A stretch of 64,000 bases of DNA from a virus (lineage: Duplodnaviria; Heunggongvirae; Uroviricota; Caudoviricetes; Crassvirales): positions 11,764 to 75,763 of the IMG/VR virus record IMGVR_UViG_3300033120_000148; one strand, written 5' to 3'. Under the pieces are notes generated by a model. It worked only from the letters and a program-made list of their open reading frames with translations, did not search any database and had not been told where the DNA came from. Positions 1-52,637 of the stretch are shown piece after piece. Made by a program: the position numbers and the translations under genes. Position 1 is the first letter of the stretch. The number at the start of each line of letters is the position of its first letter.

Positions 1-1
1 T

Positions 2-36
2 TAAGGAGAGTTGATTTTTCAATTCTCCTTATTTTT
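2..36 (+). terminator. Rho-independent terminator: 12-bp hairpin (AAGGAGAGTTGA/TCAATTCTCCTT, one G.U) followed by ATTTTTTAT
   Basis: Inverted repeat plus T-tract read directly. Likely ends an upstream plus-strand gene outside the window. Confidence 0.5.
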
Positions 37-100
37 TATATATAGTAAATTACTATATAAGTACAATAAATTTAATAAAATCCTTGTTACATTGATATAT

Positions 101-121
101 TTTTAGTATCTTTGCAGCAAG
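101..121 (+). promoter_or_regulatory. Bacteroidota-type promoter, -7 element TATCTTTG (TAnnTTTG) inside extended motif TTTTAgTATCTTTGCAgCAA
   Basis: Sits ~28 nt upstream of the ATG at 142. A near-identical motif recurs at 6958-6978. Matches the Bacteroides sigma-A -7 consensus TAnnTTTG. Confidence 0.5.
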
Positions 122-141
122 GATTTTTAATATTATTAAAT

Positions 142-2089: not shown

Positions 2090-2090
2090 T

Positions 2091-5000
2091 ATGGTAGTAA
2101 AACATTCTTCACATTTAATTAAGGGAATGCAGCAAGATTCCAGTCCTTCTATTGCTAATAGTGAGTATGCAATAGATGCTAGAAATATTAGAATTACAGC
2201 AAGAGAGAATACTTCTCTATTTTCTGTAGTAAATGAGAAAGGTAATATTGAAATTACTTTAAAGACAATTAATGGTACTGATGCTACTTTGATAGGTGAT
2301 TATGTAGGACATGCAGTCTTAAATAATTACTTAGTAGTATTTATGCACTCATCAGACTATGACTATATCTATAGACTTGAAAAGAAAATAGATTATAAGC
2401 TTGTAGAATTCTTAGAAGTAGTAACTCTATACCAAGGAAATTTAGGTTTAGATGTCAGTCATCCTTTGGAAACTTTGCCTATATTTGAAAATGAAGACAT
2501 CTAGAAAATATACTGGACTGATGGACTAAATCAACCTAGAGTTATTAATATAGTTGCTACTTAGAATGTAAGAGCTAAATATACTTCTACATCATTTGAT
2601 TTTGTTAGAAAACTTAATCTATAGGAGAAGGTAACAATTAATAGAAATGTAGTAACAAATGGTTTATTTTCTCCTGGGGTACTATAGTATGTATTTACAT
2701 ACTATAATAAATATGCTTAGGAAAGTAATATATTCTATACTTCTCCTCAGTATTATACCTCATTTAATAATAGAGGAGCATCTCCTGAAGATAGTATAAG
2801 TAACAGCTTTGATATAAATATCTCAAACATGGATTATAACTTTGATTATGTTAGAGTTTATTCTATTATGAGAACTTCTATTGATGCTACACCTACTTGT
2901 AAAAGAGTTATAGATATAGCTTTACCTACATCTTAGGAATATTCAATAAAATAGTCTACAGAAACACTATAGACTACAGATAAACTGGTGTGGTATGATG
3001 GAAAAAGCACATATTCTACAGATACAAATCCTACTGGAAGTTTTACAATATTAAGTAGTTATGCCTATATATAGCATGTAACTTCTTCTGGATATACTAT
3101 GATATATAATAGTTTTAATGAGGGTGATGTTATTAATCTATCATTTACTAATGGTGATAATAATACTAAAGTATATACAGTAGATATTACTAGACCCACA
3201 TCAATTACTTATACAGATACAGGTACTCAAGGATCTACTATAGATCCTACTGAACTACTATATGTAGGAGGTGAAGAGGTTATATTTGGTACAATGAACT
3301 AGAAAGATAATACACTATTTCTAGGTGATATAACTCTAAAAAGAAAATTATTAAGTACTTAGTTAAGGACTTTAGTAGCTTCTCATCTAGTGAATTTTAA
3401 TTATGCTCTAGATGATATAGGTAGTTATAAACGTCTAAATCTACCTTCAGCATCTGGTTATTATCCATATGATAATTAGCTTAAGTATAACTCAAGTCAG
3501 ATAAAGACATTTAAATATCTTGAGTACTATAGATTTGGTATCCAAGCTTAGCATTATACAGGTAAATGGTCAGAACCTATTTGGGTAGATGATGAACAGA
3601 ATTTAGTTCCTATTAGTAATGACCCTACATAGGGAAGTAACAGCTTTAATACTGTAAAATTAGTTACAGCTTCTACTAACTTTGGTAGTGATATTATACA
3701 AATGCTACTTGACTAGGGGTATGTTAAAATTAGACCTGTAGTAGTATATCCTACTATTAATGATAGAGAAGTAATATGCCAAGGTGTATTATGCCCTACA
3801 GTATATAATGTTAAAGACAGACATGAGAATGCTCCATTTGCTTAGTCTTCATGGTTTATAAGACCTAATGCTCCATTTGATTTAAAGAAATCATTTGATA
3901 TGAAAGCAGATGGAACTAATATATCTGATATGCACTTATTAGGGGATTATACTACTACAGATATAGTATCTAGAGGTGGAATATTATCAGCAGGTAGATC
4001 TACAATAAAAGATGTACAGCCCGATGGCTCTATAAAATATATACCTATTGATGTATCTAACTTTGGGGATTGGGCTGAATTTAGGCATAATTATCCAATA
4101 CCAGATAACTTATCTAGACAGGCAGAAATTCAATCAATTTCTTCTCCACCAAGTAATCCTTACACTCAATATAATGAAGATAATTTAATAAATGATTATA
4201 TTGATTCTAATAAGTAGAATTATTATGTTGACTAGTCTATTTTAACATTCCACTCTCCTGATATAGAATTTGATTCAGAAGTAAGAAGTTTAGATTCTTC
4301 TAATTTAAAACTTAGAATAGTTGGAGTTGTTCCATTAACTTCATTTTATAGTGATATTGAGTTAAATACTTCAACTCCTGTATTACAATTTAAGGGTACA
4401 TCTGACTTGCCAAATGGTTTCTATAAAGAAAGAATGAGTGCTTAGAATCTATTCAATACACCAGGCTCTCTTGGAATATCTACTAAGTTAAAATCAGAAT
4501 CTAATTTTGGATGGAGAGGATGCTAGGCAGCACCAATGTGGTTTGATGAAGTATATGATTCTACTTACAATACTAATACTGATCATAAGGTTACAGGATT
4601 TGTAGTATATCCATGGCATAGAAGTGGATCTATGAATAATCAAAAGAATGGAGAAGGTGATAGTAAATATAGATACTCATTACTTCAAAAGAAATAGATG
4701 TCGACTATAAGATTTTCTTATAACACTTTCTATTTAAGTATTAATAATTTATGGAATGCTTATATAAAGGATTCTACTACTAATACTGGTATATCAGGAG
4801 TAAATATATTTGACTCTGATTAGATCTCAGTTACTAAGATTAAAGCTTAGGAAAACTCAGGATTATAGGATATAAATTACTATGGAAATATTGATAAGTT
4901 ACTAATAGGAAATTACTCTGGCAGCTCAAATGCTGGTTATACTATAGCTATAGGTGGGTCTATGAATGATTCCTCTACTAATATTCATAGTATATTCTCT

Positions 5001-6863
5001 GCTCCTAAATATAAATCTTGCTCCTCTTTAGCTAATGCTGGTAATATATCTGGTACAGACCCTGTTAGAATTAAATATAAATCTACTGCTCATGCAGTTC
5101 TAGCATTAAATTATGCTAAAGATGGGAGTCAGAGAGTTTTACCAACAACTTATGATAGTAGCTATTACTATGGAACTAATGGATAGACTTGGGCTATAAA
5201 TAATGTAGGAGGTAATTTCTCAGATGTAACAGGTACTGAATCTAATGTAACAGGTTATGATGATAGGGGGGAGCCTACATATGAGGATCAAACAATTTCT
5301 TATAATGTTTGGGGATTCTGGGATAAGAAACATATTACAAAATCTGTAAGTCAAGATACTCTTAATGTGGGTAAAATAGGTGATAGTTCTGAAGGTACTA
5401 TTCAATATGGATGGTTATGGTTAGGAGAACTTTATAATGACTCTGTAACTAATAGATTTGGTGGTAAAACTGAGGAAGCTTTTGAAAATAATAAATGGTT
5501 ACCTTGTGGTAGCCCTATTAATTTAAAGTAGGCTAATGGTACTACTAAAACTTCAGTAAATGTTATATGGTCTGAGGGTGATACTTACTATTAGAGATAT
5601 GATAATCTAAAGACATTCCCATTTACAAATGATGATATAAATCAGGTAACAGATATAGTATCATTTATGGTAGAAACAAGAGTTAATCTTGATGGTAGAT
5701 ATGATAGAAATAGAGGACAAACAAGTAATATAACTATGAGTCCTACTAATTTTAACTTAATGAATAATGTATATAGTTAGAAGAATAATTTCTTTACTTA
5801 TAATACCGTTAATCCTAACAAGTTAAATCTAGATAATTTCCATAATTCTATCACATGGACTAAGTCTAAGACTATGGGGGATCTAATAGATACTTGGACT
5901 AATATTACAATGGCTTCTACTTTAGATTTAGATGGTGATAAAGGTATAGTAAGATCACTTAAAAAGTTTAATAATGAAATATATGCTTTTTAGGATAGAG
6001 GAATAAGTAATATTCTATTTAATTCTAGAACTCAATTATCTTCAACAGATGGAATACCAATTGAAATAGCTAATAGTGGAAAAGTTGATGGTAAAAGATA
6101 TATAGCTACTAATCTAGGTTGTGCTAATAAATGGTCTATAAATGAGACTTCTAATGGTATATATTTTGCTGACAAAGAGAATAATTCAGTTTATTTATTT
6201 GATGGTAAATTTAGTAGTTTAACAGATAAATTTGGTTTTAGAAAGTGGCTTGGTGATTAGACTCCATACTTTAATAATTTTAGAACTTACTGTGATAAGA
6301 ATAATTCAGATATTTACTTTAATGTAAATAATGGTGACTCATCATCATAGTGTTTATGCTTCTCTGAATTCTTAAATCAGTTTACTTCTTTTATGTCATA
6401 TACAGATGTAGACTCTATGTTTAATCTGGGAAGTGACTTCTATGCTATTAAAAATAATAAGATATGGCATAACTTTGAAGGTGAATATAATATGTTCTTT
6501 GGTACATTCTAGCCTTTTAGTCTAACAGTTATATCTAATTAGGATGAAAATCTAGATAAGATATATAATAATATTGAATTTAGATCTGATACTTTTAATG
6601 GGCAAGTTTCTACTAATAATACTTTTGATACACTGGATGTATGGAATGAATATCAACATGGTACTATGAGTTTAATAAATACTAAAGATAAACCTTCTTC
6701 ACTTAAAAGAAAGTTTAGAGTATGGAGAACATTAATACCTAGAGATAATATAAATAGTAGGGATAGAATTAGAGGTACTTGGGCTTATGTAAAGTTAGCT
6801 ATGAATAATCCTAATACTTTTAGAACTCAATTATATGACTTAAATGTTCATTTCTTTGAATAA
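2091..6863 (+). CDS. Giant virion/tail-type structural protein, ~1590 aa, TAG recoded as sense
   Basis: All five track fragments (2091, 3099, 3900, 4962, 6666) are in the same frame. Codon-by-codon reading finds only TAG between them, no TAA/TGA, ending at TAA 6861-6863. A 4.7-kb frame free of TAA/TGA in ~30% GC DNA is non-random. Confidence 0.6.
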
Positions 6864-6887
6864 TGTAGTATAATTATATATAATATA

Positions 6888-6937
6888 ATGGGTAGATTAA
6901 GTTAAATCTTAGTCTACCCATAATTATTTTAATTAAG
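6888..6937 (+). terminator. Rho-independent terminator: 14-bp stem (ATGGGTAGATTAAG / CTTAGTCTACCCAT, one U.G), 6-nt loop, then AATTATTTTAATT
   Basis: Perfect inverted repeat immediately after the TAA of the 1590-aa gene, followed by the promoter motif at 6958-6978. Confidence 0.6.
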
Positions 6938-6957
6938 TTATTGTATATATCAATAAT

Positions 6958-6978
6958 TTTATTTATCTTTGCAACAAA
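6958..6978 (+). promoter_or_regulatory. Bacteroidota-type promoter, TATCTTTG -7 element inside TTTTATTTATCTTTGCAACAA
   Basis: Second copy of the motif seen at 101-121. Sits ~19 nt upstream of ATG 6990. Confidence 0.5.
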
Positions 6979-6989
6979 ATTTATATAGT

Positions 6990-9416
6990 ATGACTAAGAA
7001 ACAAGTTATAAGAAAGTCTAATAGAACACTAAATATATTTGCAGACGGAGGAACTACTGATAAAAAACCTACTGACAGTAAAGGATCTATTATAAATTCA
7101 TTATCAGGAGTTGGAGGGTCACTAGTAGGATCTATTGGTGGTGGTCTAGTTGGTGGTGGATTATAGTCTGGAGCAGGCTCTGCAATAAGTGGAATTGGAT
7201 CTACTGTTGGTGGAGCAGTTGGAGCAGTTAATCCATTACTGGGTGGTATAATAACAGCAGGCTCTGGTATTGTAGGAGGTTTAACAAATAGGATGTTTGG
7301 TTCTAAATTAAATAATTAGAAAATATCAGATATTTAGAGTTAGAATAATACTTTAAATACTACTATGCTTGATAGTAGTAATAATGATACTGTAGCTAGT
7401 TAGTGGGCATCATAGGGTTTTGGTGATAACTTTACTAGATCTGATATAGGAAAAGATGGCTGGTTTAGTAATAAAGCTGAAAATAAATATAAAGAATTAT
7501 AGCTTCAATAGAATGTTGCTAGAAATAGAATGATGGAGTCATATAATAATGCTGCAGATAATGCTGATGAGACTTAGGACTAGTTAGCTTTAACTAACTT
7601 CGCTGCTTATGGTGGACCACTTAATATATATGCTGAAGGTGGTAATCTACATTAGAAAGCTGTTACATATAAAAATAGGTTAGAAGCTGTAAGAGGACCT
7701 ATGAATGATGACTATGACTATACAGGATACTATATGAAGTATCCTAAAAAAGCAGAGGCAATGATTAAAGGAGATAAAAAAGCTCATTTTACTGATGAAT
7801 TTAAATTACCAAATCATGCTACTTTCTCTGATGAATCTATATACTCTAAACAAAGAGGTGGTGGAACTTAGGAAGGTGGACACTGGGGTTATTCAAATGG
7901 ACATGATACATTTAATGTATCTCAAGATAACTTTAATAATAATCCTAATCTTGGTTAGTATTTTATGCAGAATGAACCTAGTAGTATTCCTATATATAAT
8001 GGGGGAATATTATTACCACAAGTTACTATTTAGGGTAATAGATTTGCAGAAGGTGGTGAACTAGATGATTTAAATAATCATGGAGCTACTTGGTCTAATG
8101 GAGTTACATATATTAATAATGGTGGAACTCATGAAGAAAACCCTAATGAAGGTGTTTAGGTTGGAGTAGATTCTTAGGGAAATCCTAATCTAGTAGAAGA
8201 AGGTGAGGTAAAATGGAATAACTATATATTTAGTAATAGAATATTTGCTAATAAAAAAGGCTTAAAAGCTAGTAATTTGCCTACATCTTTAGATAATAAT
8301 TCATTTGCTTCAGCAGCAGAGAAAATTAGTAAACAATCAAAAGAGATGCCTAATGACCCTATTAGTAAAAGATCATTAAATGTATCTCTCTCAAGATTAT
8401 AGTAGTTACAAGAAAGTATGAGACAAAAGCAAAATAAAACATAGAATAGTAATCCTAATAAATTTGCAATTGGAGGTCCAACTGGAGATACATTTGAAGC
8501 CCCATTCAAAATGAGAGCTGATGGTACTTATCCTATTAATGATACTTATAGTTTACCTATTTAGAACCCAACTAAAGATTCAACTAAACGTGGTAAATTA
8601 TCATTATCTGATACTGCAATATCAGATATGTATAATGATAATTTAGTTAAATCAGCTACAAATACTAAGCTTGGTTTTAAGGTACCAGATATGGTAACTA
8701 CAACTAAGAAACCTCCTAGTGATCCTAATAATTTTGACAAGGGATTACCATTTTTAAGATATGCCCCAGCTATAGGTTCTGGTGTAGCAGCTTTCACTGA
8801 TATGATGGGATGGACTAATAAACCAGACTACAGTGGAATAAATAAAATAAGTGACACTGTAAATCACATGTCACCTGCTTCATATAGACCCATAGGTGAC
8901 TATATGACATATAAGCCACTAGATAGAAATTACTATTAGAATATGCTTGACTCATAGGCTGAATCTACAAAGAGAGGTATAGTTGAATAGTCAGGTGGAA
9001 ATAGAGCTACAGCTATAGCAGGTTTACTTGCAGCAGATTATAATGCTTAGAGTAAAGTTGGTGAACTAGCTAGATAGGCAGAAGAGTATAATCAAGGACT
9101 AAAGGAAAGGGTTAAATCATTTAATAGAGGTACAAACTAGTATAATTCAGACTAGGCTCTAAAAGTAGATGAACTTAATATGAATCTTGATAGACTTAAA
9201 TATGAATCTTCTGTACAACAAGCACAAATGAGATAGGAAGCTTTAGCTAGAGCTACTGCTGCTAGAACTGCTAATATTTCTAACTTCTTTAATAACTTAG
9301 GTGGTATTGGAAGAGAGGATACACAGAAGAATTGGATTAGATCAAACCCTGGTTTCCTATATGATATTAGTGATAACGGTATATCTTATAAAAATAAAAA
9401 GAAAGGAGGTAATTAA
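6990..9416 (+). CDS. Virion structural protein, ~808 aa, Gly-rich N-terminus (GGSLVGSIGGGLVGGGLQSGAGSAISGIGSTVGGAVGAV), TAG recoded
   Basis: Frame 0 from ATG 6990 (the track's 6969 start is a TTG) to TAA 9414-9416. Contains track fragments 6969 and 8628. Many in-frame TAG, no TAA/TGA. Confidence 0.6.
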
Positions 9417-9417
9417 T

Positions 9418-11205
9418 ATGTCAGATTATAGTTTAGTTGTAAATTCACAATTTTAGCCATTTTCATATTAGGAAATGTTAGCTCCTGTGTTACAAGCAAC
9501 CTAGGCACAGCAAGATATAGAGAATCAGTATAGTATGCTTGATTCTGAGGCTAATACTATTTAGTAGAGAGCTTTAACAGATAGTAATTCTGAATGGGCT
9601 AAGAAATATACTACTTATACAAAATAGTTAGAGGACTCTGCTGCAGATTTAGCAGCAAATGGTTTAACTCCATCATCTAGGAGTTCTTTATTAAAATTAA
9701 AAAGAGACTATTCAAGCAATGTAAATCCTGCTTTAATGGCTATCCAAAGATAGGCTGAAATAGCAAGAACTTAGTAGGCTAAAAATGGTGAGGGAGTAAG
9801 AATGGTTTATGGAGCAATGCCTTCCATTGACTAGTTGATAGCTGATCCTAATTTAGATAGAGTTAGTTATAGTGGTAAGGACATTGAAGCTTCTGCTGCA
9901 AATTCTGCTGCTGCTGCTTCTGCAAGACATGTAATAGATAACTTTAAGAAAGACCCAGCTAATGCTGGTTGGATGAAACATATTAAAGAAACTGGATATA
10001 GTTCACAAGCATTTAATGCCTTACTTAATGAAGCTAAGAATTCAAGTGATCCTAATGTAAATATATTAGCATAGATTACAAATTAGGTTAAGCAACAATT
10101 TGGTAACTTTGAAGGAGTATCTGATGTAGATAAACATAGACTAGAAGGTGAAATACTATCAGGTTTATTCAAAGGTTCTGTATATAGAAATGAGGATAAC
10201 TATTAGACAGATCCTATCTATATGGCTAATTTACAATCTAGTCTTGAGGAAGGTAGATAGATTAGAGCTGAGAATAGAGCACTTGCTAGAGAGAACCCAG
10301 GTAATACATCTACTAATGGTGTAGCACCTAATCCTATTAATATGTATTCTCCTAAAGAGAAGAAGGAACAAGCTGATGCAATATCTAAATTTAAGCAGTA
10401 TTTCTATAGAGATAACTCTGGTTAGGTTAAAATGACTTATAAAGGACTACAAGAATATAGAAGAAATGCAGCTATAGTACCAACTGTAGCAGGGTCTGGT
10501 GGAGGAACAGCAGCTTTAATGAATGCAGAAACAGCTATGGGTAGAAAGAGAGGTTATCAACCTACTTAGTTCAAAGTATTTATGGATAAACTTGGTGCTA
10601 ATCATTATATAGATAGTAAGAAATTTAAAGGTGGTAAGGGTTGGCAACCAGGCAATGTAGGTAATCTTTGGTCTAGATATAGTTCTGCAAATAATGCAGG
10701 TAAATATGATGCTACTAAAGCTACTCAATATGAGTATAAAATTGCTAAAGATCAATAGGATCTTACAAAGGATAATATAGTTATGGCTTTAAAGAATTAG
10801 CCAGCATATGAAGTAGCATTTAATGGTACTACATTAGCTAGAACTCATAAAGTTCTTTCATATAGTGATCTATATACAAATGGTAGAGTAGTAGCTACAA
10901 GATTGAGTCCTTATGGTAATACATTTGTAGTCATTGATAAATCAGGAAAGGTTAGTGAATATGAAATGCCTCCTGGAATTAATCCTACTAATGAAGGTAA
11001 CAGAGATAAATTGCTAAAACAATTACCTACAATGTAGTAGGTATTAAAAACTGGCAAAGCTGGTAATCATATATTAAAGCCTAAGGAAAAGGAAGACTTA
11101 CAAAGTCTATATAATTAGAATATATAGAATGCTTACATGTATAACTCTTAGCTCAATGTAACTAATACTACAGAACCTTAGAAGGCTTATCCTTATTCTT
11201 ATTAA
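9418..11205 (+). CDS. Hypothetical virion protein, ~595 aa, TAG recoded
   Basis: ATG overlaps the previous stop (TAATATG). Frame 1 contains track fragment 9835 and ends at a triple TAA (11203-11211). Confidence 0.55.
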
Positions 11206-11213
11206 TAATAAAT

Positions 11214-14200
11214 ATGGGAACATTAAAATAGGTAAAATAGAAACCAATAGATATATTGAAAACTGGTCCTGCCAGTTTTAGAGAACTACAATAGGCTAAC
11301 CAGTCAAACTTTAGTCCTTAGTATTAGGCATTTGTAAATGACTTAAAGATTAAGTCTCAGCCAACATCATTATTTGATGCTGCTGCTTAGGCTTAGCAGG
11401 ATGTTGCTTCTCCATTAAATAATAGTGAAACACCATGGGGTAAAAGTAAATTTGATGCTACTTCAGCTAATGATAACACATTTAATAATTTAGGTGATAT
11501 TAGAGCTGAAAATGAACCTTGGTATGATAAAATAGGTGCAGGTATTTCTAAGGGAGCAGTACTAGCAGGTACTACTTTCTTAGATGGTACTCTTGGTTTA
11601 TTATATGGAGCAGGAACTGCAATTTCTCAAGGAAGAATATCAGGTATTTGGGATAATGATTTCTCAAGGTCTATGCAAAGTATTAATAATTATATGGAGA
11701 AAGAACTTCCAAATTATTATACTTAGAAAGAACAATAGGCAGCTTGGTATAGTCCAGATAATATATTTACAGCTAACTTCCTAGGAGATAAATTTATAAA
11801 GAACTTAGGATTTAGTATTGGTGCTTTTTATTCTGGTGGTGTTACAGCCTCTGGATTAAAATTAAGTCAATTACCATAGTTAATTGAAAAAGTAACAGGT
11901 ATAACAAATGCAGCTAGTCATGTAACTTCTGCTGTAGGTGCAACTATATCTGCTGTTAATGAAGGTAGAATAGAAGCCCTTAATAATTCAGGAGATTGGT
12001 ATAAGGCTTAGAAGACTATACTTGATGACAAATATAAATCAAGAATAGAGGCTATTTAGTAGTAGTATCAAGCTAATGCTAACAGACAAATGATTAAAAC
12101 TGCTGAGGGTTCTTATGTAGATCCTGCTTATTTACAATATAAGCAAGATATAGCTAGAGAATAGAATTCATATCAAGGTACTCTTAGAAAGATGAATGAA
12201 GACAGGTTACATATGGGCAATGTTGATTTATTAATGAACTTACCTATATTAACTGCTTCTAATCTTATATAGTTTGGTAAGATGTATGCTAATGGATTTA
12301 AGACTGCTAGAAAGACTACAAATATTACTGGAGGAATTGGTAATTATGCAGCTAATACATCTAATGCGAGAGCTGCTCTTGCATTCACTAAAAGTGCTTT
12401 ATCAGAAGGTAATGAGGAAGTACTTCAATAGGCTGCTAGTAATATATCTGGAGATTATTATGCTACAGATGTAAATAACTATTATAAAGCTAAAACTGAT
12501 CCTAAGGCAGCTAAAGATACTCTAAGTTGGACAAAAGCTTTTGCTTAGGGAATGAATGAAACATTAAATGATAACTCATCTTGGGAATAGTTCCTTATAG
12601 GTAGTATAACAGGTGCACTTGGTATGCCTAGATTTAGGTCTATTAAGAATGCAGAAGGTCATTTTCAGTTTCCAGTAACTTTAGAAGGAGGTGCTTATAA
12701 TCAGTTTAAAGATTATAGAGAGGAAGCAGCTAGAACTCAAGGAGTAGTAGATTATTTAAATAACAGAGTTAACTCCCCTGATTTTAAGAATTACTATCAA
12801 GGACTTGTTAGACATAATAAGTTCTAGAATGATATGAATTAGGCAGTAGATAATAATGATGATTTTAATTTCAAGAATGCTGAGCATTCTCAATTAGTTT
12901 CTGATGTTTCCATGTTTGCAAAAGCTGGAAAATTAGAAGATCTAAATACATTAGTGAAAGCAGCTTATGATACATCTGATGATAATTTAAAATCTATTAC
13001 TGAGAACACTACAACTAAAACTCCTAATGGTATATCTGGTCCATTTGTAGACTCTAGTGGTAATCCTATGTATGCTACTGAAGCAGGTAAATAGGAGATG
13101 ATTAATAAGCTTACTAAGTCTAAAGATGAGATAATGAAGGAAGTAAATAACTATAGTAAGATAAGAGACTAGATTAATGCAAGTACTAATGAAGCTCTTA
13201 CTGATGATTAGCTTGATGAATTAACTTGGATGACTTCTTAGATAGGTAACTTTGAAGACAGATCTACTGAGATGGCTAAGGATATTAAAACTTCTATATC
13301 TAAAGTTATAGGTAATCTTTCTTCTAAATTATCTTTGGCTACACAAATTAGACATCAAGAAGGTAAGGACCATGCAGATTTAACACCTGTTTACAGACAA
13401 GCAGATAAAGCAGTTATCAACTTAACTAAGACTATGGATAGTTTAAACTCACTACAAAGTCGAAGTGATGATTCTATGCTAAGTGCTTTAACTGATAACC
13501 CAGAAGTTGTAAATTACTTAAATAAGCAAATAGATAATCTAGATGAATCTGTACTAGATAAAGAATCTAAGAAAGATATAAATTAGAAATTGAATGATAT
13601 TCTTAAACTTGGTAAAGCTATAGATGTATTTAGAAGTAAACTAGATGAATACACCAATAACCCTGCTAAATAGTAGGAAGACCATGCTAAGATTGATACT
13701 GATAAAATAAAGGAAGAAGAGGCAAATAAGAAAGCATCTATAAAAGATAGATTAAGAAATGCTAAAGATTTATAGGAGTATAGATCTATATTAAGTGATG
13801 AGGAAGATGACACAGATGATGCTGTAAAAGACTTACAAAATGAGAACCATAACTTAACTATAACTAATAAAAAGATTAATAGTAGGTATAGAAGCTTGCA
13901 AAATGCTATACTTAATAATAAAGATATAGATGATGAAACTAAGTAGGATGCTCTTGATATGTTGGATAATCATTATAATAAAGCCAAATCACTTGGTGAA
14001 TTCAGAGATCCAAACTCAGCAAGTCTAACTGATGAAGACTACTTCAATCATGATACAGGATTTAATGAAGGGTCATCTAATGATAGATTTTAGAAAGCTA
14101 AATATGCAATTGATAAAGCTTTTGAAAAGGTAGTTAAGGATAATAACTTCATGAGGTCTCTAGCTTAGTAGCAGCCATTACAAGATATAGTTAGGCAGAC

Positions 14201-17200
14201 TACTGAAAAAAATGGAGTTAAAATAACTAAATATGGAAGAAGAAAAGGAGATAAAATAATTAATGGTACTGGTCCTAGCATAAGTAAAGATGATATTCCT
14301 GAATCAGAATTAGAAACTATTGAAGGCCTACTTGATGATATGGGAGATACAGCTAAGTTAGAACTGATTGAATTAAGAGAAAGGGATGGAAAATATTCTG
14401 GAACTGTAAGACTTAATGGGCAGATAAGTGGTGCTCCTATTAATGAAAAATTTGAATTTCTATTTGATAAAAATCCAGATAAACTGAGGGGTGTAGATAA
14501 AGAAGAAACAGGAGATAGTAAAACAGCAACAATACCAACAGAAGATAATTCAAATGAATTACCCAGGACAATTAATGAAATACCTGTAGGTGATTATTCA
14601 ATAGATGAAGTTAAAGAAGAGAATAAAAACTCTGATACTAATGATAAGAAACTTACATCTAAAGATAATTCTTAGTACTATATTCCTGCTGTACCAGAGT
14701 TGGATATTGAAGCTAGTAGAAATGGTGATTATAGAAACTTTGATGAAGTTAAAAAGGAGTAGAATCCTAAACTAGATTTCTCTAAAATATATAATTATTT
14801 ATCTAGTAATAATGCTTTTTCATATGTAAATGAAGGTAATCTTAAAGAAGGTGATAGATTAGGTTTTATGATAGATCCTAACTTTAGTGATACTACTATA
14901 TTTATTATTGATAAGAAAAATAATTAGATAGTAGGTTCTCTATTTGAGTCTGATTATAAACTAAAACAGTATGAAGGCTTGGAGCAATTAGTTAACAAGA
15001 TATATCAAGAATATAAAAATAGAGAAGATAGAAATTCTAAATTTATAGCTACTCCTACTACAAGAGTGTCTTAGATGCTTGTAGGTAGAATTCCATATAT
15101 TGCAGATGAAAAGAATCTAAAGAATGTAATAGAAGAAGGTAAAGCTAATAGTACTATTTTTGGCATAGTTAAAAATGGGTCTATTACTACTAATGAAGCT
15201 ATTCCTAGTGATTAGATTATGATGCACTCTGGATTAGATGGTAAAGAAGGTAGATTATATATGTTACTATCTAATGCTGCAGGTAAATATTCACCTGTAG
15301 CTGTGAGAGTAAAGCACTTTAATGCTGATGAATTTAATCTAGATGATGCTACTGTAGCAGAAACACCAATGGGTAAGAGTATTTCTAAAGCTATAAATGA
15401 TTTAGCTAGATCCTCATCTTAGGAAGACATAACTAATGCAATGGTTAATCTAATATAGGATATTCATCTGCAAGATGAGATAATTACTCCTATGGAGAAT
15501 AACAAAGGTAGAGGTATTCTTATAAGTTCTAAGGTCAAGGGAGCAGATGGTAAATATGAAATGGTTGAAATAGATGGTAAATAGTATATTAAAGAAACTA
15601 GAATACCTATTTACTTTACTAAAGAGGTTAAACCAGTAGAAAAGAATGGACTAAGTCTAGAATTTTCATCATTTGAAGCGGCTGATATTCCTAGTAGTAG
15701 TGTAGAGATGAAGCCTGTTTAGGATATAGTAAAGGAAATAACAAATGCTTTATATTCATTGAATAAACCTTTACAAGTAAGTACTGGAAGAATTAATTAG
15801 TCTGGATATAATGCTAGAATAATTAACTCAAATATACTTTCATCAAATATTAGTTCTACTAAAATTAAAGGAAGTTTCTTTACAACAGATTACTTTGATA
15901 AATCAGGAAATCTACATGCTGCTATAACAGTAGCAAATAATAGACCTTCAGTAGGAAGAAAAATTGAAACTGTTGTTGGTGGAAAAGAGAGTGCTATTCC
16001 AGGAACTCCTGTAAATCTTAATAATATATAGTACTATGTTGATTTATCTACTAAGGAAATAAGAGATAAATTCAATAATAAAGTTACTACTAATTAGGAT
16101 TTACTATTTAATCTAGCTTGGGTAAGAAATAACTATGGTAGATTAAAGAGTACTGGTGCTATTAAAAATAATAAAGTTTTATTGCCTGATGGTAGGGCAC
16201 TAGATATTAGTAAATAGAAGATATTAAGTGGAAAAGAGTATGATAAATTTATAGATTCATTAGATGCTGTAAAAGAGAGTACAGAAGCTAATTACTAGGA
16301 TGGATTAAAGGCTGTAGAGCAAATGCAAGAAAACTAGAAATTAGTTGATAGTCAGACCTATTCTATATTGGAAGATGATGGTAATTATTATGATTATACT
16401 CCTGCTGTAGATAAAGCACAATCTAGAGATACTATTTTAGACAATGGTCTTCACACATTAATACTATAGTTTTTTAATTCATCTGAACCTATAGTTAAGC
16501 CTGATACTATGACTAAGAAAGCCTATTAGGCATTAATAGATTAGCTAAATAATATTAAAGAAGCTTTAGAAAATAGAGGTGAGAGATTTATATCTAATAA
16601 TATAACATTATTCTATAAGTATCCAAATGGAGATAGAATAGCTGCTAAGGTAGATATAATGACTATGGATAAAGATGGTAGATTTAGATTATATGCTGTT
16701 AGAAAATAGTCTTAGAATAAAGATGATATACAGAAGATAACTAAAGAATTATCTATTATGTCAAATCTATTTAGTTCTCAATATAACTTGCCTATTTATT
16801 CTATGGCTATAATACCTTTCTCTGTAAAAACAAGAGGAAATAAGGTATCTGAGACTAAATTAGAAAAGGGTATATCTATCAAATAGAATGCAGGTACTGA
16901 TACACCAGCTATAGGTAATATATAGAAAGCTAAATCTACATTACCAATATTTGAAAGTTCCTTAGAAACTCTAAAACCTATTAATGATGTTAATACTGAC
17001 AACAGATCATTAGATTCTGATACAATAGGTTATTTCTAGATTGAAGGTAAGTTACATACTGGTTATTTAATGCCTATAGGTAATATTGAAGGTAATGAGT
17101 TATATTTAACTAGAACTGCCAATATGACAAAAGGATTTAAAGACACTGTAGCTCATGCTGCAACTTATAATTATTTTGTAGTATTTCCTAATGGTGAAAC

Positions 17201-17717
17201 ATTTAATATTAAGAATAATAGCATTACAAAAGATCCTAAGGAAATGGCTAAAACAGCTATTAATCTTTTAAGTAAAAATCCTAATAGAGTAAAGGATATG
17301 TCTACTTCTGATACATTACTTTATAAAAAAGGTGAAGAGGTAACTTAGGAAGTTGAAAAACCTAAATTAACTACTGCTAATCTATTATAGAGTAGTAATA
17401 ATAAGTTAACAGCTTCTCAATAGACTGTATTAAAAGAGTAGGCTGTAGCTGATGTAGATGAAGAATTTGAAGATGATTTGGATCTAGATGATATTACTAA
17501 TATAGGTGATTCTATAATGAGTGGTCAAAAGGCTGATATTACAGATTCTAATAATAGTAAAGATGATAGTAAGATTGATGTAATTACAGATATAGATTAT
17601 GATTCACTATCAAATGATGCTAAAAAGTCACTGACTTCAAAAGGTTGGACAAAAGCAAAGTGGAATAAAGTATCTATTGCAGAGAAGTAGAAAGCTCTAA
17701 ATTGTCTAGGTTTTTAA
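11214..17717 (+). CDS. Giant virion/tail-type protein, ~2167 aa, TAG recoded (dozens of in-frame TAG)
   Basis: Track fragments 12624, 12912, 13272, 14340, 15219, 17070 and 17478 all share frame 0. Read through, they are joined only by TAG codons, ending at TAA 17715-17717. Confidence 0.6.
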
Positions 17718-27900: not shown

Positions 27901-29153
27901 CCTTCATAGTTATCTCTCCAACTATTTATTAGATAATATATACCTTCAGGTTTATTAACCTGCTTAGTTTGTACATTAAATGTTCCATCAGGATTTAACT
28001 TCTTGATTTGAATCCAATAAGGTGTAAAATCCTTTCTGAAATCTTGATAGAATTTAGAGAATAAAGTATTATCACCTTGTATAGTTTTGATTAGTTGTTT
28101 AACCCAAACTTTATTATTTGATAATTTATCTAAAGTAGGAATCATATCACTGGAGTTAATCATGTCCTTTAAGCTATCAATCAAAGCAGCATGAACATAA
28201 TCAGCATCCAGATACCTAGGGAAACCTAAATCATCCTTCTCAATCTTACCTCTGCTATTAAGCTTAGGTATGTTGCTTATTACTTCTCTTACTTTCTTAG
28301 ACAGTGACTCATGTGAGCTAATTTCTCTAAAATTAGTCATCCAACCATCTTTAACAGATTCCTCTTTAGATAATTCATCAGCCTTTACTTTTACAGCATC
28401 TGTATCAGATTCTGTCATATCCACATCTGAAGAAGCCATATCATCTGAATCTACTACTATACCTTCAGTAATAGATAAAATAGCTCCTGCCTCATCTGCT
28501 AAAGCTCTGAAATTTCTAATTAGTTTTTCATATTCAGAATTTTTATAGGCAGCTATTTTCTTAGCTGCTTCTAATTTCTTTTCATCTGAATATCTTTCAG
28601 AGCCTTTCTTAGAATTAATAGTATCAAGTTCTGCTGCAATATTATTCTCCATAGAGTCATTAACATACTTTTTAAATATGTCTAGAACTCTATTAAAGAT
28701 GCCAGCAGGAGTATATAAATTAAGAACAGATATTCTATCCAAATCATTTAATTTGGAAATAAGTTCTTCTTTATTTTCAACCTCTGGGTCTCCTGACTTT
28801 TTATTTACATATTCAGATACCTCCTGTAATGAAGTATCAATTTCATTACTAAATAATTTTGCTATTAAATTAGCTCTATCCCTTCTTTTAATAGGATCAT
28901 AGTCCTTTGCAACTTGTCTTAAATCATCACTGTTAGTAGTAATAGTAGTAGTATTATAGTCATAAGAATTATCCTTATTCTCTCTAAGTTTGATCATAAA
29001 GTCAGATAATTCTCCTACAGTTGGATAAGATTCTATAGAACCTTTACCACTTTCTTGCCATAAAGAAATAAGATTTTTAATAGATTCAGCAGTTTCCTGT
29101 GGAAATGATTTCGCTATCTCTTTTATTTCTTCAGTCATTAATAAACAACTCAT
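21948..29153 (-). CDS. Giant 2401-aa protein, candidate crAss-like virion-packaged RNA polymerase (DxDxD-type motif GSDFDVDKLY)
   Basis: Uninterrupted ORF. DFDVD resembles the double-psi beta-barrel Asp triad (NADFDGD / DxDGD) of two-barrel RNAPs. No other recognisable motif, so the function is tentative. Confidence 0.65.
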   Translation of the reverse strand: MSCLLMTEEIKEIAKSFPQETAESIKNLISLWQESGKGSIESYPTVGELSDFMIKLRENKDNSYDYNTTTITTNSDDLRQVAKDYDPIKRRDRANLIAKLFSNEIDTSLQEVSEYVNKKSGDPEVENKEELISKLNDLDRISVLNLYTPAGIFNRVLDIFKKYVNDSMENNIAAELDTINSKKGSERYSDEKKLEAAKKIAAYKNSEYEKLIRNFRALADEAGAILSITEGIVVDSDDMASSDVDMTESDTDAVKVKADELSKEESVKDGWMTNFREISSHESLSKKVREVISNIPKLNSRGKIEKDDLGFPRYLDADYVHAALIDSLKDMINSSDMIPTLDKLSNNKVWVKQLIKTIQGDNTLFSKFYQDFRKDFTPYWIQIKKLNPDGTFNVQTKQVNKPEGIYYLINSWRDNYEGNVILDKDSVYTSQGFNASNAGKGLAILSGINSKFNNLSNKDKAELAGEDESIFNDLLKALHMVGVDANPDMLKKVIGTYIGTDKVDFTPSVVTLVNSLNVIFSGIAKNKVSTSDNNKNDLINLFSNSYSNIANMLAEVTEDAIESSSRENGKSYYSHVNPSYLGKLIKNLKNVYNNEERFEQFINTEFKQYNWFFKNNSWRNDWLNQLVNSPKMREGLNRKVLLNSDKVEYTKWDDLDYSLILFNEYNSEPSNIKSDTKWAWYHVPILSDSPSAEFIRFRKYTNGDMYNEDGEPMSYQEILTTKFIDLVGQEYDRIMLVRARDNAYQSGDKSIKPITNFDIVRNNNGEISNIGGAEFKFLPQLNSVELQGESFLDTIARLREDGDGAAMKSYISAVIQDIMESSFEDAYKEWYDNGVFEETENGKFKNLTFRDSIIKNNSNQAKLLREIKQLVTSESSESWSENMESLLQQYVNNSPINDNFASSVLDDIYELEFSDEKSAEKLENLKSRLSLKNTAKEAFREYFWNSSFATSQIIQLTTTDLAFYKGAVDFQKRYKEIYASPLRLNTDATFNGEKVGRKIERTIYLKDEEITSSVLDDINEILKEKNVPGREEIIKKFKEVNVADAQAYRSLDSYRAIKVMSGDWNDDMEKAYHNFKNNTWDASDFDTIWQTIKPFVFTQVSNNSGIDTFGNIKTPVQHKNSEFLLLAMYNLVSGPLGKSGKLRAINSFMEQNNIDVVQFESAVKVGKQGVINLNSTIDNSVKKKLDNDLKEGTITQEEYNKQIDSYNVDSFDKTLEILNNTTGIAAGNEDPNVVHAISYEDYGIQTATPEHLIDAKQLLGTQIKKLITADIPEDAIISVNGKNFSKAEFLSLYNSIITENMLESYDSVKKELLDPKEVSNILIETVKGNKKYNYDMIKACTLDNNGDFTIPLFDPVQSVKTQQMLNSIIKSRIVKQKLKGGALIQVSDYGLSDDLHIVFTGKGENKRIKYLECYMPAYSRDFYEPLMNPETHQLDVSKLPEDLRKLIGYRVPTEDKYSMVPLYIKGFLPQQNGSAIMLPSEITALSGSDFDVDKLYIMLPEFGISKYNIRQAREDFAKSNAAYHSIMSSFSNSQLANELNEDEDPSFKEWFRSNKENYRKQRTSLYKIKYDFNLKPEENSLAARNNLIIDMMYGVLTNPDTAPKILNPGGFDYQKRAAKIVSILQNSTIESLREDLKGMSNSPSQSVLETLLNITNVKVLEKLAEKNRKFINPLSPRTQVYFHQQNMTGGELIKMYANHNSNHALIQHTKLELNSAGKFVLNGKSLTSLHEIKNPEGEFISRNNAGFLAASVDNVKDQVLADINQNLFTSDASMLLSRLGYTPVEIGLLMSQPIVKDMTNYYFRNYRSGINKDTAIKNVLSKYAKRSSVSKILSYDNYAGRSFSNEELAQYLLQNNNRSKADTIEFSRNQLAIGVLFQRIMNSADALSLVVQATRSDTPAGAAGPTIAHTMNKIQKVETLYDKMDTLSFPLNNADVVKVIDSKSMSISNLRNTLNESPLPYIQAAFTCGITGTEGIFSKYFPNYTKSFKEVFTGKGNNYDGFNGFYDISKTGKLDVKTINSIYNDLLVYVMSKTKFFGSEFGEITSEDKRRNFINNFPSEFKKIVTNNEDIASLDFIKRLQVVKPSRTNPVETLVFKNVGQLSSTLKERYMRDWESLLYMKNEEAQKLALNLFRYNFYRNGFSFGANSFIHLAPTSLRLAVPDYISTLRGLLNTNDSYKEFIGQYISNHLNNRRLVPEIKTGSIKDNIVKDNKAIKEFTIDGNFPRVDLDPFIKTAITVNGTTIYDFLDYIAVKGKDDFFYYKKDEGSELNTATYYRIKPLGKVNNFLEYEYGKDVDAMNSVLPSNSNTDINDTGNSVTEDNNNTDYNEEDSTDNIDDSSDESMEKQEPSADDIKGIMDIPKDAFRAVYGSELEDAPNIHSGINSIQSNDDYKDANGEPIC

Positions 29154-51562: not shown

Positions 51563-51959
51563 TTACTCTCCTTGATAGTAAGCATCTGATAATTCAATAA
51601 GTTTACCTAGATCATTTGACATATATAGAGGTAACATTCCTACTGGACTCTTAGCTGGATATACACCATCATCATTGGTAACAAATTCTCTGATACTCTT
51701 TTTTTCTTTTTCATCAAAAGTAGCCTTTCCATATAATACTACTTCAAATTTACCTTCGGGGCAGATATACTGATCTACCATATTTCCAGTACTCTTATAT
51801 CTGTAAGATATACTATCACCATTCTTATCTTTGTACTCTTCATAATGAGCTAAGCAAATAATATTCTTTCCCTCAGGAACATTATTAATAGCATCAAAGA
51901 TAATACCCATTCCATATCCAATCTGCTTTGGTGTCAATTTTGTTAACTTATAGGCTTTT
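51563..51959 (-). CDS. AAA_24-like (Sak4/RecA-like) ATPase, 3' part (exon 2 candidate)
   Basis: GKNIICLAHYEEY matches the hhhhHE motif downstream of Walker B in AAA_24 proteins. No ATG: the track start at 51937 is TTG, and the frame is open back to a TAA at 51959-51961. Confidence 0.45.
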
Positions 51960-52277
51960 TATCCTATAATTCTATAGTTTCTTGTATTGTTACTATAGTT
52001 CAGCATATATTTTCATCTCTAATAGTATTAGAGAGTTGGGTACTCTTGGCAAAATTATATTCTTATTATTTTTTAATAAGGTTCATTTGCTATGCGTTAC
52101 ACTGTACAGTCCTTTTATCTACTGTATTTAGCACGGTATTGAGTAAATGTTTTTCCTATTGGGAACAAAACTTCTCATATCAATTGTTATATATTTGCCA
52201 ACCGAAATATAAATACAATGGGTATATACAAATCCTTTCACCGTTTTTATCCAATTATTTTCACATAAATCACTTTA
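51960..52277 (-). other. 338-nt ORF-less insert splitting the AAA_24-like gene; candidate HEG-less self-splicing intron (or a disrupting insertion)
   Basis: Locally GC-richer, with a palindrome ACTGTACAGT and no ORF on the gene strand. The flanking ORF halves together form a complete AAA_24-type ATPase. Confidence 0.4.
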
Positions 52278-52637
52278 TGCAGGGACACATACTCTATCCC
52301 ATCCTCCTTTTAGAGCATTTTTCATATAGTAATCTTGACTGATATAGTTCATATCATCCAATACTATATTCTTGTAAGGACACTTTTCTGAAGCCAATAG
52401 ATTAATGATGTTAGCTACTTCTGTAGCATCATTGGTTATAATTCTATTTCCACTAGTCAAAGCTTTTGAAGTAGTAATAGGATACCTCTTTGACCCTCCT
52501 CTAAATGGTAATGGTTTATTTACACTACTAATAATATAAGTAGTTTTAGGATCTAATCCCTTAATACCAAGCTCTGGAATTTCTCCAATTGAAGTTGATT
52601 TACCAAATCCACTTTTAGCTAAAATTAAACACTTCAT
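52278..52637 (-). CDS. AAA_24-like ATPase, 5' part (Walker A + Walker B)
   Basis: Walker A LILAKSGFGKST, Walker B NIVLDDMNY. Ends ..LKGGWDRVCVPA with TAA. Confidence 0.5.

What the first reader, a model, noticed from the sequence alone, without database searches (positions are those of the whole stretch)
51563..52637. AAA_24/Sak4-like ATPase gene split by a 338-nt ORF-less, GC-richer insert
The 5' ORF has Walker A/B (AKSGFGKST, IVLDDMNY) and ends ..GGWDRVCVPA-TAA. After 338 nt the next ORF has no ATG. Its frame is open from a TAA and continues with GKNIICLAHYEEY, which is the conserved post-Walker-B segment of the same family. Together the halves give a ~235-aa full-length protein. The insert is distinctly less AT-rich than its surroundings and contains the palindrome ACTGTACAGT. 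The candidate explanation is a small HEG-less self-splicing intron. I could not recognise clear group I R/S elements by eye, so a disrupting insertion or a pseudogene is the alternative.
Basis: partly seen in the sequence, partly recalled or inferred. Interest (0 to 1): 0.6.

Follow-up and report, generated by a model that had tools for sequence, protein, structure and literature searches.

The report
Endonuclease-less group I intron in phage ATPase
A crAss-like gut phage has its Sak4-like recombination ATPase gene interrupted by a 361-base group I self-splicing intron that has lost its homing-endonuclease gene; this is a real but ordinary kind of phage mobile element.

Summary
The split gene is real. 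It lies on the minus strand. Exon 1 is 52637..52296 and exon 2 is 51934..51563. The insert is exactly 361 nt (52295..51935), not 338 nt. It is not GC-richer than its surroundings (GC 0.285 against 0.31-0.32 in the exons).

Near-identical intronless alleles define the junction to the base. Joining the exons gives a 237-aa Sak4-like ATPase.

The insert has the anatomy of a group I intron:
- The 5' exon ends in U, which pairs with G of an internal guide (P1).
- P10, P2, P3, P4, P6 and P7 are present, with the P3/P7 pseudoknot.
- P7.1/P7.2, P8, P9, P9.0 and P9.1 are present, and the intron ends in a terminal G.

The helices are backed by strong covariation in a family with at least 120 copies in viral contigs. 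A covariance model built without the window hits it once (117.5 bits, E 5e-23). That hit ends exactly at the 3' splice site.

Rfam finds nothing. It also misses the proven T4 td and nrdB introns, so that negative result carries no weight.

At least 23 other crAss-like contigs carry the same intron at the same codon. Most copies are about 980 nt and hold a LAGLIDADG endonuclease gene. The window copy is a deletion derivative that keeps a remnant of that gene.

This is a new member of a known kind. Splicing itself has not been shown.

The parts
52296..52637 (-). Exon 1 of the Sak4-like ATPase (codons 1-114, ending ..GGWD). The last 5 nt, GGGAU (52300..52296), are the 5' strand of P1.
   Evidence: ORF listing and sequence. 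Junction fixed by intronless alleles L005-L007. Matches PHROG 2872 positions 4-101.
51935..52295 (-). Group I intron, 361 nt, with no intact ORF. It begins AGAGUAUGU and ends AAAAUUG.
   Evidence: Absent from alleles that are 96-97% identical. The 3' half is 68-83% identical to introns of many phages. Each reading frame holds 8-12 stop codons.
52282..52289 (-). Internal guide sequence. GUCCC (intron 10-14) pairs with exon GGGAU to form P1, with a U.G pair at the splice site. UGU (intron 7-9) pairs with exon 2 ACA to form P10.
   Evidence: Pair check. Identical in copies at the same site.
52263..52280 (-). P2 hairpin GCAUAAA-GUGA-UUUAUGU, with a GNRA loop.
   Evidence: Pair check. There is a compensatory A-U to G-C change relative to L095, and the loop changes from GUGA to GUAA.
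52248..52254 (-). P3 5' strand UUGGAUA (intron 42-48). It pairs with UACCCAA (intron 254-260).
   Evidence: Covariation: 6 of 7 pairs show changes on both sides. The window has one A.C at a position that is usually G.U.
52239..52244 (-). P4 5' strand ACGGUG (intron 52-57). It pairs with UACCGU (intron 158-163, window 52138..52133).
   Evidence: 97% of cells paired across 37 sequences. Pair check.
52139..52238 (-). P5 region with a roughly 100-nt insert. The insert is what is left of the homing-endonuclease cassette and is predicted to form three hairpins.
   Evidence: Collinear with L095 2199-2347, including the first codons of its LAGLIDADG ORF (MRSFVPNRK in the window against MRDFIPNKK). Fold. 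The closing P5 helix is uncertain.
52098..52132 (-). P6/P6a hairpin (intron 164-198, GCU..ACAGU..ACUGU..AGU).
   Evidence: P6 is 96% paired, with a pair that changes on both sides in 18 of 37 sequences. Pair check.
52091..52097 (-). P7 5' strand A[C]GCAUA (intron 199-205, with C200 bulged). It pairs with UAUGCU (intron 289-294, window 52007..52002) and forms a pseudoknot with P3.
   Evidence: 100% paired, with 2 covarying pairs. RNAalifold predicts it independently when the P3 5' strand is absent.
52049..52090 (-). Peripheral domain between P7 and P3'. P7.1 is GCAAA/UUUGC (intron 206-210 with 243-247). It encloses P7.2, CUUAUUA/UAAUAAG (intron 216-222 with 228-234).
   Evidence: P7.1 is 97.8% paired, with 4 of 5 pairs covarying. 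P7.2 is 85.7% paired.
52014..52042 (-). P3 3' strand UACCCAA (intron 254-260) followed by the P8 hairpin (intron 261-282).
51948..52001 (-). G295, then the P9.0 5' strand AA (intron 296-297), the P9 hairpin (298-324) and the P9.1 hairpin (327-348).
   Evidence: P9 is 96% paired and P9.1 is 98% paired, with many double changes.
51935..51947 (-). 3' tail GUUAACAAAAUUG. UU (intron 359-360) is the P9.0 3' strand and G361 (window 51935) is the terminal omega-G.
   Evidence: The covariance model match ends exactly here. P9.0 permutation test: 76 of 109 observed against 41.1 +/- 3.4 in shuffles. Junction fixed from intronless alleles.
51563..51934 (-). Exon 2 (TPKQIGYGMG.. to the stop codon).
   Evidence: Matches PHROG 2872 positions 106-212. 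Alignment to uninterrupted homologues. The spliced CDS is 714 nt, the same length as the intronless alleles.

Best explanation
The 361 nt at 52295..51935 (minus strand) are a group I intron of subgroup IA inside the Sak4-like ATPase gene of a crAss-like phage. The phage's nearest named relatives are in Steigviridae.

Inferred mechanism:
1. The gene is transcribed through the intron.
2. The RNA folds into the P1-P10 architecture.
3. A free guanosine attacks after the U of ..GGGAU, which is held in P1 by the guide GUCCC.
4. The freed exon end then attacks after the terminal G (51935), aligned by P10 and P9.0.
5. The joined message reads ..KGGWD-TPKQIGYG.. and gives a 237-aa ATPase.

The intron descends from a roughly 980-nt mobile intron. 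That intron sits at this same codon in other crAss-like phages and carries a LAGLIDADG homing-endonuclease gene in its P5 region. In the window about 630 nt of that gene have been deleted. What remains is a 100-nt remnant and an intron that can no longer home by itself.

Shown here: the boundaries, the family membership, the covarying structure, the endonuclease-bearing relatives at the same site, and the presence/absence polymorphism.

Inferred: that the RNA still splices.
For: 1. Boundaries. Three intronless alleles (96-97% nt identity) align up to 52296 and again from 51934. The exon ends in U and the intron ends in G.

2. Helices in the window copy. P1 (5 bp with U.G), P10 (3 bp), P2, P3, P4, P6, P6a, P7, P7.1, P7.2, P8, P9.0 and P9.1 all form. 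P9 forms as CUAUAG/CUAUAG (intron 298-303 with 319-324). The only non-standard pair is an A.C at a position that is usually G.U.

3. Covariation in 37 diverse family members.
- 95.7% of cells are paired, against 73.8% in shuffles and 32-43% when partners are slid.
- 37 of 52 pairs change on both sides, and 0 of 500 shuffles reach the observed score.
- RNAalifold finds P3, P4, P7.1, P8, P9 and P9.1 on its own, and P7 as well.
- P9.0 plus the terminal G: 76 of 109 observed against 41.1 +/- 3.4.

4. Model R1, built from 36 other members, hits the window once. The match is 52104..51935, full length, 117.5 bits, E 5e-23, and it ends at the splice site.

5. The 3' core recurs next to the 3' exons of split genes and beside annotated intron endonucleases. 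Examples are a capsid gene, a RecD helicase, gyrase A and the cr6_1 ATPase.

6. The same exon/intron junction occurs in 13 viral and 16 metagenome contigs. Of 23 same-site copies whose length could be measured (the window copy excluded), 20 are 950-983 nt, one is 652 nt and two are 299 nt. The ORF in L095 is a LAGLIDADG_3 protein.

7. Copies at this site keep pairing through change. 99.3% of cells are paired and 17 of 30 pairs show double changes.

8. The exons are intact and look constrained. There are 18-21 synonymous and 4 conservative non-synonymous codon differences from the intronless alleles.

9. The introns are 80-84% identical across phages whose ATPase is only 51% aa / 64% nt identical.

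10. Group I introns are known in crAss-like phages (PMC7886860). They have been shown to splice in other Bacteroides phages (PMC12880540).
Against: - No RNA data are available, so splicing is not shown.
- Rfam gives no group I hit, either at gathering thresholds on the whole window or at E<=10 on the region. The T4 td and nrdB controls fail as well.
- The deletion ends right beside the 3' strand of the long-range P5 candidate. In the window that helix is only G-C, G.U, A.C, U-A, and the local alternative has 2 bp. The P4-P6 domain may therefore be weakened.
- The deletion-junction 23-mer has no match in IMG/VR or the JGI metagenomes. Only one other contig, which is cut short, shows this allele. 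The variant is not known to persist.
- The unconstrained minimum-energy fold differs from the proposed structure (-67.3 against -49.0 kcal/mol for the constrained nested part, which omits the pseudoknot).
Confidence: 0.87

Rival explanations
1. It is a dead intron. The sequence is a group I intron by descent, but the deletion that removed the endonuclease gene damaged P5 or the folding of the P4-P6 domain. The RNA no longer splices and the ATPase gene is a fresh pseudogene.
For: - The right end of the deletion abuts the P5 3' strand, and both P5 candidates in the window are weak.
- The allele was seen only here and in one truncated contig.
- Close relatives are intronless.
Against: - Every other helix is intact, and the model score of 117.5 bits is close to that of the endonuclease-bearing copies (123-135 bits).
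- The P5 region tolerates inserts of 30-700 nt in many family members.
- Other short variants (299 nt and 652 nt) exist at the same site inside otherwise intact genes.
- The exons have no frameshift or stop codon, and differences are mostly synonymous. That constraint, however, cannot be dated relative to the deletion.
Confidence: 0.09
2. These are two genuinely separate genes. The ATPase is made as two polypeptides that assemble, and the spacer is only an intergenic region.
For: Both halves are open reading frames. A TTG lies at 51937.
Against: - The C half has no ATG, and its frame starts inside conserved intron structure (P9.1 and the 3' tail).
- The spacer is a full-length member of an intron family.
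- Homologues are single 233-238-aa proteins.
- The break falls in the middle of the conserved motif GGWD|TPKQIGYG, not at a domain border.
Confidence: 0.03
3. It is another kind of interruption: a group II intron, a transposon or MITE remnant, or a gap bridged by stop-codon read-through or frameshifting. The phage appears to recode TAG in its late genes.
For: With TAG read as sense, window 1-17.7 kb opens into long ORFs.
Against: - The N half ends in TAA, not TAG.
- The insert is 361 nt, which is not a multiple of 3, and each frame holds 8-12 stop codons.
- It begins AGAGU, not GUGYG. It is far too short for a group II intron, and Rfam shows no domain V match.
- No other copy was found in the window by BLAST. 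I did not search for terminal inverted repeats or a target duplication.
Confidence: 0.01

Closest known systems
The same intron with its LAGLIDADG homing-endonuclease gene, at the same codon of the Sak4-like ATPase in other crAss-like phages (for example IMGVR_UViG_3300008712_000008 = L095, 982 nt)
   Same: - Same insertion site (GGWD|TPKQ), same guide sequence, and the same exon 2 start, ACACC.
- 75-92% nt identity over the 5' part of the intron and 80-84% over the 3' domain.
- All helices are conserved, with compensatory changes.
   Different: - The window copy lacks about 630 nt of the endonuclease ORF.
- Its host ATPase is only 51% identical at the protein level.
- The close relatives of the window phage are intronless.
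Phage T4 td intron (group IA2, encodes I-TevI) and T4 nrdB intron (group IA, with a defective, partly deleted I-TevIII gene)
   Same: - Phage group IA introns in DNA-metabolism genes.
- td shares AAACGGgGAA and CAAUcCCGUGCUAAAU (J3/4-P4 and P4'-P6) with the window intron.
- It shows the same order of elements: P7, extra helices, P3', P8, P7' (read from the td sequence).
- The T4 nrdB record annotates an endonuclease gene crippled by a deletion. That is the same kind of decay.
   Different: - There is no significant sequence similarity in the 3' core.
- td has two tandem hairpins between P7 and P3'. In this family one helix encloses the other.
- The endonucleases are GIY-YIG or HNH proteins placed in P6, not a LAGLIDADG protein in P5.
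- That td and nrdB self-splice is established knowledge and was not tested here.
Group I introns reported in crAss-like phages (Yutin et al. 2021, PMC7886860) and in Bacteroides 'Jug' jumbo phages (PMC12880540)
   Same: [quoted passage not shown]
   Different: - Yutin et al. found introns through endonuclease protein domains, mainly in the Delta and Zeta groups. An ORF-less intron like this one would escape that method.
- The window is nearest to Steigviridae (the Beta group).
- I found no report of this particular insertion.
Wider family of phage introns sharing the core AACGCRUAG..CCAMGAGU..GAAAAKRUAYGC
   Same: The window intron is a full-length, high-scoring member. It also occurs in Clostridioides, Clostridium and Bacillus phages, in Yersinia phiR1-37 and in other crAss-like phages; Staphylococcus phages gave only weaker BLAST matches (E 2e-4 to 0.3) that I did not examine further.
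   Different: The other members sit in unrelated genes (capsid, tape measure, helicase, gyrase, AAA ATPase). They carry their ORFs in P1/P2, P5, P6 or P9, or have none.

Membership tests
Group I intron | The 5' exon ends in U, which forms a U.G pair with an internal guide sequence (P1). | tested here: met
   Exon GGGAU pairs with intron GUCCC in 5 pairs, including U.G at the junction. The junction was fixed independently by intronless alleles.
Group I intron | The intron ends in G (omega-G), which is positioned by P9.0 and P10. | tested here: met
   - The intron ends ..AAUUG at 51935.
- P9.0 is AA/UU and P10 is ACA/UGU.
- P9.0 covaries across the family: 76 of 109 against 41.1 +/- 3.4 in shuffles.
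- The model match ends on this G.
Group I intron | Catalytic core P3-P7-P8 with the P3/P7 pseudoknot. | tested here: met
   - P3 is 95% paired, with 6 of 7 pairs covarying.
- P7 is 100% paired, with 2 pairs covarying.
- P8 is 95% paired, with 5 of 6 pairs covarying.
- P3 and P7 cross.
Group I intron | P4-P5-P6 domain. | tested here: inconclusive
   P4 (97% paired) and P6 (96% paired) are met both in the family and in the window. P5 covaries in the family (90% paired). In the window it is obscured by the 100-nt remnant, and the candidate helices are weak.
Group I intron | Guanosine-binding P7 with a bulged nucleotide, and an A-rich J8/7. | tested here: met
   At sequence level only. The pairs G-C and C-G are invariant in P7, C200 is bulged, and J8/7 reads AAAAUA and is invariant or nearly so. 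Binding itself cannot be tested here.
Group I intron | Self-splicing by two transesterifications started by free guanosine. | not testable with these tools
   This needs RNA data or an in-vitro assay.
Group I intron | Match to Rfam Intron_gpI (RF00028). | tested here: not met
   There is no hit at gathering thresholds or at E<=10. The positive controls also fail: T4 td and nrdB, annotated phage introns, and other family members. This therefore says nothing about membership.
Group I subgroup IA (T4 td / IA2 type) | Extra helices (P7.1/P7.2) between P7 and P3'. | tested here: met
   Two covarying helices lie there, 97.8% and 85.7% paired. Their topology differs from td. Here one helix encloses the other, whereas td has two tandem hairpins. 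I could not assign IA2 against IA3 without the subtype models.
Mobile group I intron with a homing endonuclease | An intact endonuclease ORF inside the intron. | tested here: not met
   - The longest ORF is 37 aa, with no Pfam match.
- It aligns to the first codons of the LAGLIDADG ORF of L095.
- The copies of 950-983 nt at the same site are long enough to hold this ORF; I checked it only in L095, where it is intact.
Group II intron | A 5' GUGYG, a 3' AY, domain V, and a size of 600 nt or more. | tested here: not met
   It begins AGAGU, ends UUG, is 361 nt long, and Rfam gives no domain V match.
Sak4-like / AAA_24 ATPase (the host gene) | A profile match across the whole protein, with Walker A and Walker B motifs. 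| tested here: met
   PHROG 2872 matches at E 1.3e-31 over residues 2-249 of the fused sequence. Pfam AAA_24 scores 22.3 bits, below its cut-off of 27. Named relatives are annotated as Sak4-like.

The most novel reading that the evidence does not exclude
The intron family to which this copy belongs is abundant in phages, with at least 120 IMG/VR loci. It is invisible to Rfam. It has a nested P7.1/P7.2 domain, unlike the T4 td type, so it could be an undescribed structural subtype of group IA. The series of copies at this one site (about 980, 652, 361 and 299 nt) could serve as a natural experiment on how much of P5 a phage ribozyme can lose and still splice. Alternatively, the retained 100-nt three-hairpin remnant may have taken on a role of its own, for example making splicing conditional.
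Probability: 0.1. Interest if true: 0.4.

Novelty: new member of a known kind. Interest (0 to 1): 0.25.

Why it matters
The main value is for annotation. Gene callers will report two 'hypothetical' fragments here instead of one 237-aa recombination ATPase. Intron searches based on Rfam or on endonuclease domains will both miss this element.

It also documents several further points:
- A crAss-like phage nearest to Steigviridae carries a group I intron.
- The intron is polymorphic among phages that are 96-97% identical.
- One homing site shows at least three independent losses of the endonuclease gene, which is the decay stage of the homing cycle.

None of this changes how such elements are understood.

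Tried and rejected
- Rfam, at gathering thresholds on the whole window and at E<=10 on 51800-52400, found only chance hits such as CRISPR repeats and SAM-V. I rejected this as evidence against an intron after T4 td and nrdB and known phage introns also gave nothing.
- An unconstrained single-sequence fold suggested a long-range pairing UUGGCAAA/UUUGCCAA, which I first took for P3. Covariation showed instead that UUUGC pairs locally with GCAAA as P7.1, and that P3 is UUGGAU/ACCCAA.
- I first read GUGCUAAAU as the P7 'R' element. Comparison with homologues and with T4 td placed it in P4'/P6.
- Second copies in the window: BLAST, motif searches and the covariance model found none. The best other model hit has E 0.36.
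- The deletion-junction 23-mer gave no match in IMG/VR or the JGI metagenomes.
- cr6_1's split 'ATPase' turned out to be a different AAA protein, cut in its P-loop, and not the same gene.
- My first P9.0 test used the wrong dinucleotide and gave a null result. I corrected it.
- Stop-codon recoding as the cause of the split was rejected: the stop is TAA and 361 is not a multiple of 3.

Full report
**What is in the sequence.**
The feature lies on the minus strand. An ATG ORF runs from 52637 to 52275 (120 aa). It carries Walker A (AKSGFGKST) and Walker B (IVLDDMNY) motifs and ends ..KGGWDRVCVPA-TAA. A second frame is open from 51958 to 51563 and reads ..TPKQIGYGMGIIFDAINNVPEGKNIICLAHYEEY...

The two halves match adjoining parts of one profile, PHROG 2872 'Sak4-like ssDNA annealing protein'. 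The N half matches positions 4-101 and the C half 106-212. The fused protein scores E 1.3e-31. Pfam AAA_24 matches only below its cut-off.

The window comes from a crAss-like phage. The neighbouring DnaB-type helicase and this gene resemble crAss001, cr85_1 (Steigviridae) and their relatives at 69-75% nt identity, and there the gene is a single 'Sak4-like' CDS.

**Exact boundaries.**
A protein search returned 1178 relatives. The best 120 are single proteins of 233-248 aa (nearly all 233-238), the closest 98% identical, and the eleven I aligned all read ..KGGWD[T/C]PKQIGYGMG...

Three contigs encoding the closest one are 96-97% identical to the window in both exons. They align up to 52296 and again from 51934. 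The insert is therefore 52295..51935, which is 361 nt.

The insert is not GC-richer. Its GC is 0.285, against 0.313 and 0.323 for the exons.

The spliced CDS is 714 nt, the same length as the intronless alleles. It differs from them at 18-21 synonymous and 4 conservative non-synonymous codons. Four of the first six bases of exon 2 differ between the alleles with and without the intron (ACACCA against TGCCCC). A cluster of changes like this is what exon co-conversion during homing, or selection for P10 pairing, would leave.

**Why Rfam is silent, and why that does not matter.**
Rfam gives no match at gathering thresholds on the whole window, and no intron model at E<=10 on the region. The same scan finds nothing in phage loci with annotated intron endonucleases. 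It also finds nothing in the T4 region that holds the td and nrdB introns. The negative result is therefore uninformative for phage group IA introns.

**Relatives.**
The 3' half of the insert is 68-77% identical to sequences in many phages. These always lie just upstream of the 3' part of a split gene, and often just after an annotated intron endonuclease:
- the capsid gene of Bajarodcaudo virus 1;
- an AAA ATPase of cr6_1;
- the RecD helicase of a Bacillus phage;
- gyrase A of phiR1-37;
- tail genes of Clostridioides phages.

**Structure.**
Reading homologues side by side gave a complete group I layout. I then tested it on a MAFFT alignment of 37 diverse ORF-less members (A2).

RNAalifold on its own predicted P3, P4, P7.1, P8, P9 and P9.1, with 27 of 36 pairs showing double changes.

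My full structure adds P5, P6, the P7 pseudoknot and P7.2. On it:
- 95.7% of cells are paired, against 73.8% in shuffles and 32-43% when partners are slid.
- 37 of 52 pairs change on both sides.
- The covariation score is 0.597 against 0.178, with 0 of 500 shuffles reaching it.

The two-base P9.0 pairing followed by the terminal G is present in 76 of 109 members, against 41.1 +/- 3.4 when the partners are permuted.

In the window copy every helix forms:
- P1 GGGAU/GUCCC, with U.G at the splice site
- P10 ACA/UGU
- P2 with a GNRA loop
- P3, with one A.C at a position that is usually G.U
- P4, P6 and P6a
- P7 with a bulged C
- P7.1, P7.2, P8, P9, P9.0 and P9.1
- the terminal G

My first indexing of P9 was off by one. 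The pairing is CUAUAG/CUAUAG, intron 298-303 with 319-324.

**Independent membership test.**
A covariance model of the 3' domain was built from 36 members, with the window left out (A3, R1). It hits the window exactly once, at 52104..51935 on the minus strand. The match is full length, scores 117.5 bits (E 5e-23), and ends on the base that the intronless alleles define as the 3' splice site. The next best hit has E 0.36, so the window holds no second intron of this family.

**Origin.**
The same exon 1/intron junction occurs in 13 viral and 16 metagenome contigs. I could measure the intron length in 23 same-site copies, not counting the window:
- 20 copies are 950-983 nt.
- One copy is 652 nt.
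- Two copies are 299 nt.

The window copy is 361 nt.

In L095 the long form holds a 263-aa ORF with two LAGLIDADG motifs (Pfam LAGLIDADG_3, 30.2 bits against a cut-off of 22.5). Window intron positions 1-149 are collinear with L095 up to the first dozen codons of that ORF. The window reads MRSFVPNRK where L095 reads MRDFIPNKK. Positions 152-361 resume at the ORF's last codons. About 630 nt are therefore missing.

The three short forms have different deletion end points, so the endonuclease gene was lost at least three times.

Copies at this site keep 99.3% of their pairs, and 17 of 30 pairs show double changes.

The carriers are distant phages. Their ATPase is 51% aa / 64% nt identical to the window's and their helicase about 68%, yet the intron 3' domain is 80-84% identical. 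The window's close relatives lack the intron. This fits horizontal spread by homing, followed by decay of the endonuclease gene.

**What remains uncertain.**
The deletion ends beside the 3' strand of the likeliest P5 helix. In the window, P5 is either a 2-bp local hairpin or a weak long-range helix that closes a 100-nt, three-hairpin remnant. Many family members tolerate inserts of 30-700 nt at this place. That argues the ribozyme still works, but only RNA data can show it.

The exact deletion allele was not found in IMG/VR or the JGI metagenomes.

**Comparison with what is known.**
Group I introns are established in phages, with the T4 td, nrdB and nrdD introns as the classic cases. They are reported in crAss-like phages, where they were found through endonuclease domains, mostly in the Delta and Zeta groups (PMC7886860). 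In Bacteroides jumbo phages, metatranscriptomes confirmed splicing (PMC12880540).

T4 td shares the J3/4-P4 and P4'-P6 sequence motifs with the window intron, but not the 3' core. Its two extra helices are tandem rather than nested.

The finding is therefore a new member of a known kind. It is well supported as a group I intron, is of modest interest, and is useful mainly for annotation.

Noticed in passing
window 1-17717, + strand: There is no ORF of 200 aa or more in the standard code. With TAG read as sense, six long ORFs cover nearly the whole stretch (79-852, 1352-2089, 2079-6863, 6957-9416, 9232-11205, 11166-17717). Reading TGA as sense gives nothing. The late, structural module seems to use TAG recoding, as reported for some crAss-like phages. 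ARAGORN finds no tRNA in the window.
   Followed up: partly
L139 2134-2432 and L144 3916-4214 (299 nt); L156 about 2229-2880 (652 nt): Other crAss-like contigs carry shorter or partly deleted versions of the same intron at the same codon. Their deletion end points differ from the window's, so these are independent losses of the LAGLIDADG gene.
   Followed up: partly
L136 (phage T4 136000-147000): Rfam release 15 at E<=1 reports neither the td nor the nrdB group I intron of T4. It also misses all members of this phage intron family that I tested. Rfam-based intron screens of phage genomes will therefore under-count.
   Followed up: yes
L002 (cr6_1, NC_055894.1) 1268-3227: The CDSs annotated 'non-ATPase regulatory subunit', 'endonuclease' and 'ATPase' are one AAA ATPase. 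It is split inside its P-loop (GTKGTG|KT) by a member of the same intron family, with the endonuclease ORF ending in P6/P7.
   Followed up: partly
L001 (Bajarodcaudo virus 1, PQ006092.1) 1253-1443, 2501-2627 and about 4009-4045: The major capsid gene is cut into at least three pieces by several introns of this family. A further core copy lies near 5016-5127.
   Followed up: no
window 51934-51929 against L005-L007: The first six bases of exon 2 are ACACCA in all intron-bearing alleles and TGCCCC or TGCCCT in the intronless close relatives. This changes Cys to Thr. The pattern fits co-conversion or selection for P10 pairing.
   Followed up: partly
window 28535-28641, - strand: A weak full-length match to the intron model (13.6 bits, E 0.36) lies inside the 2401-aa ORF. 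I take it as chance.
   Followed up: no
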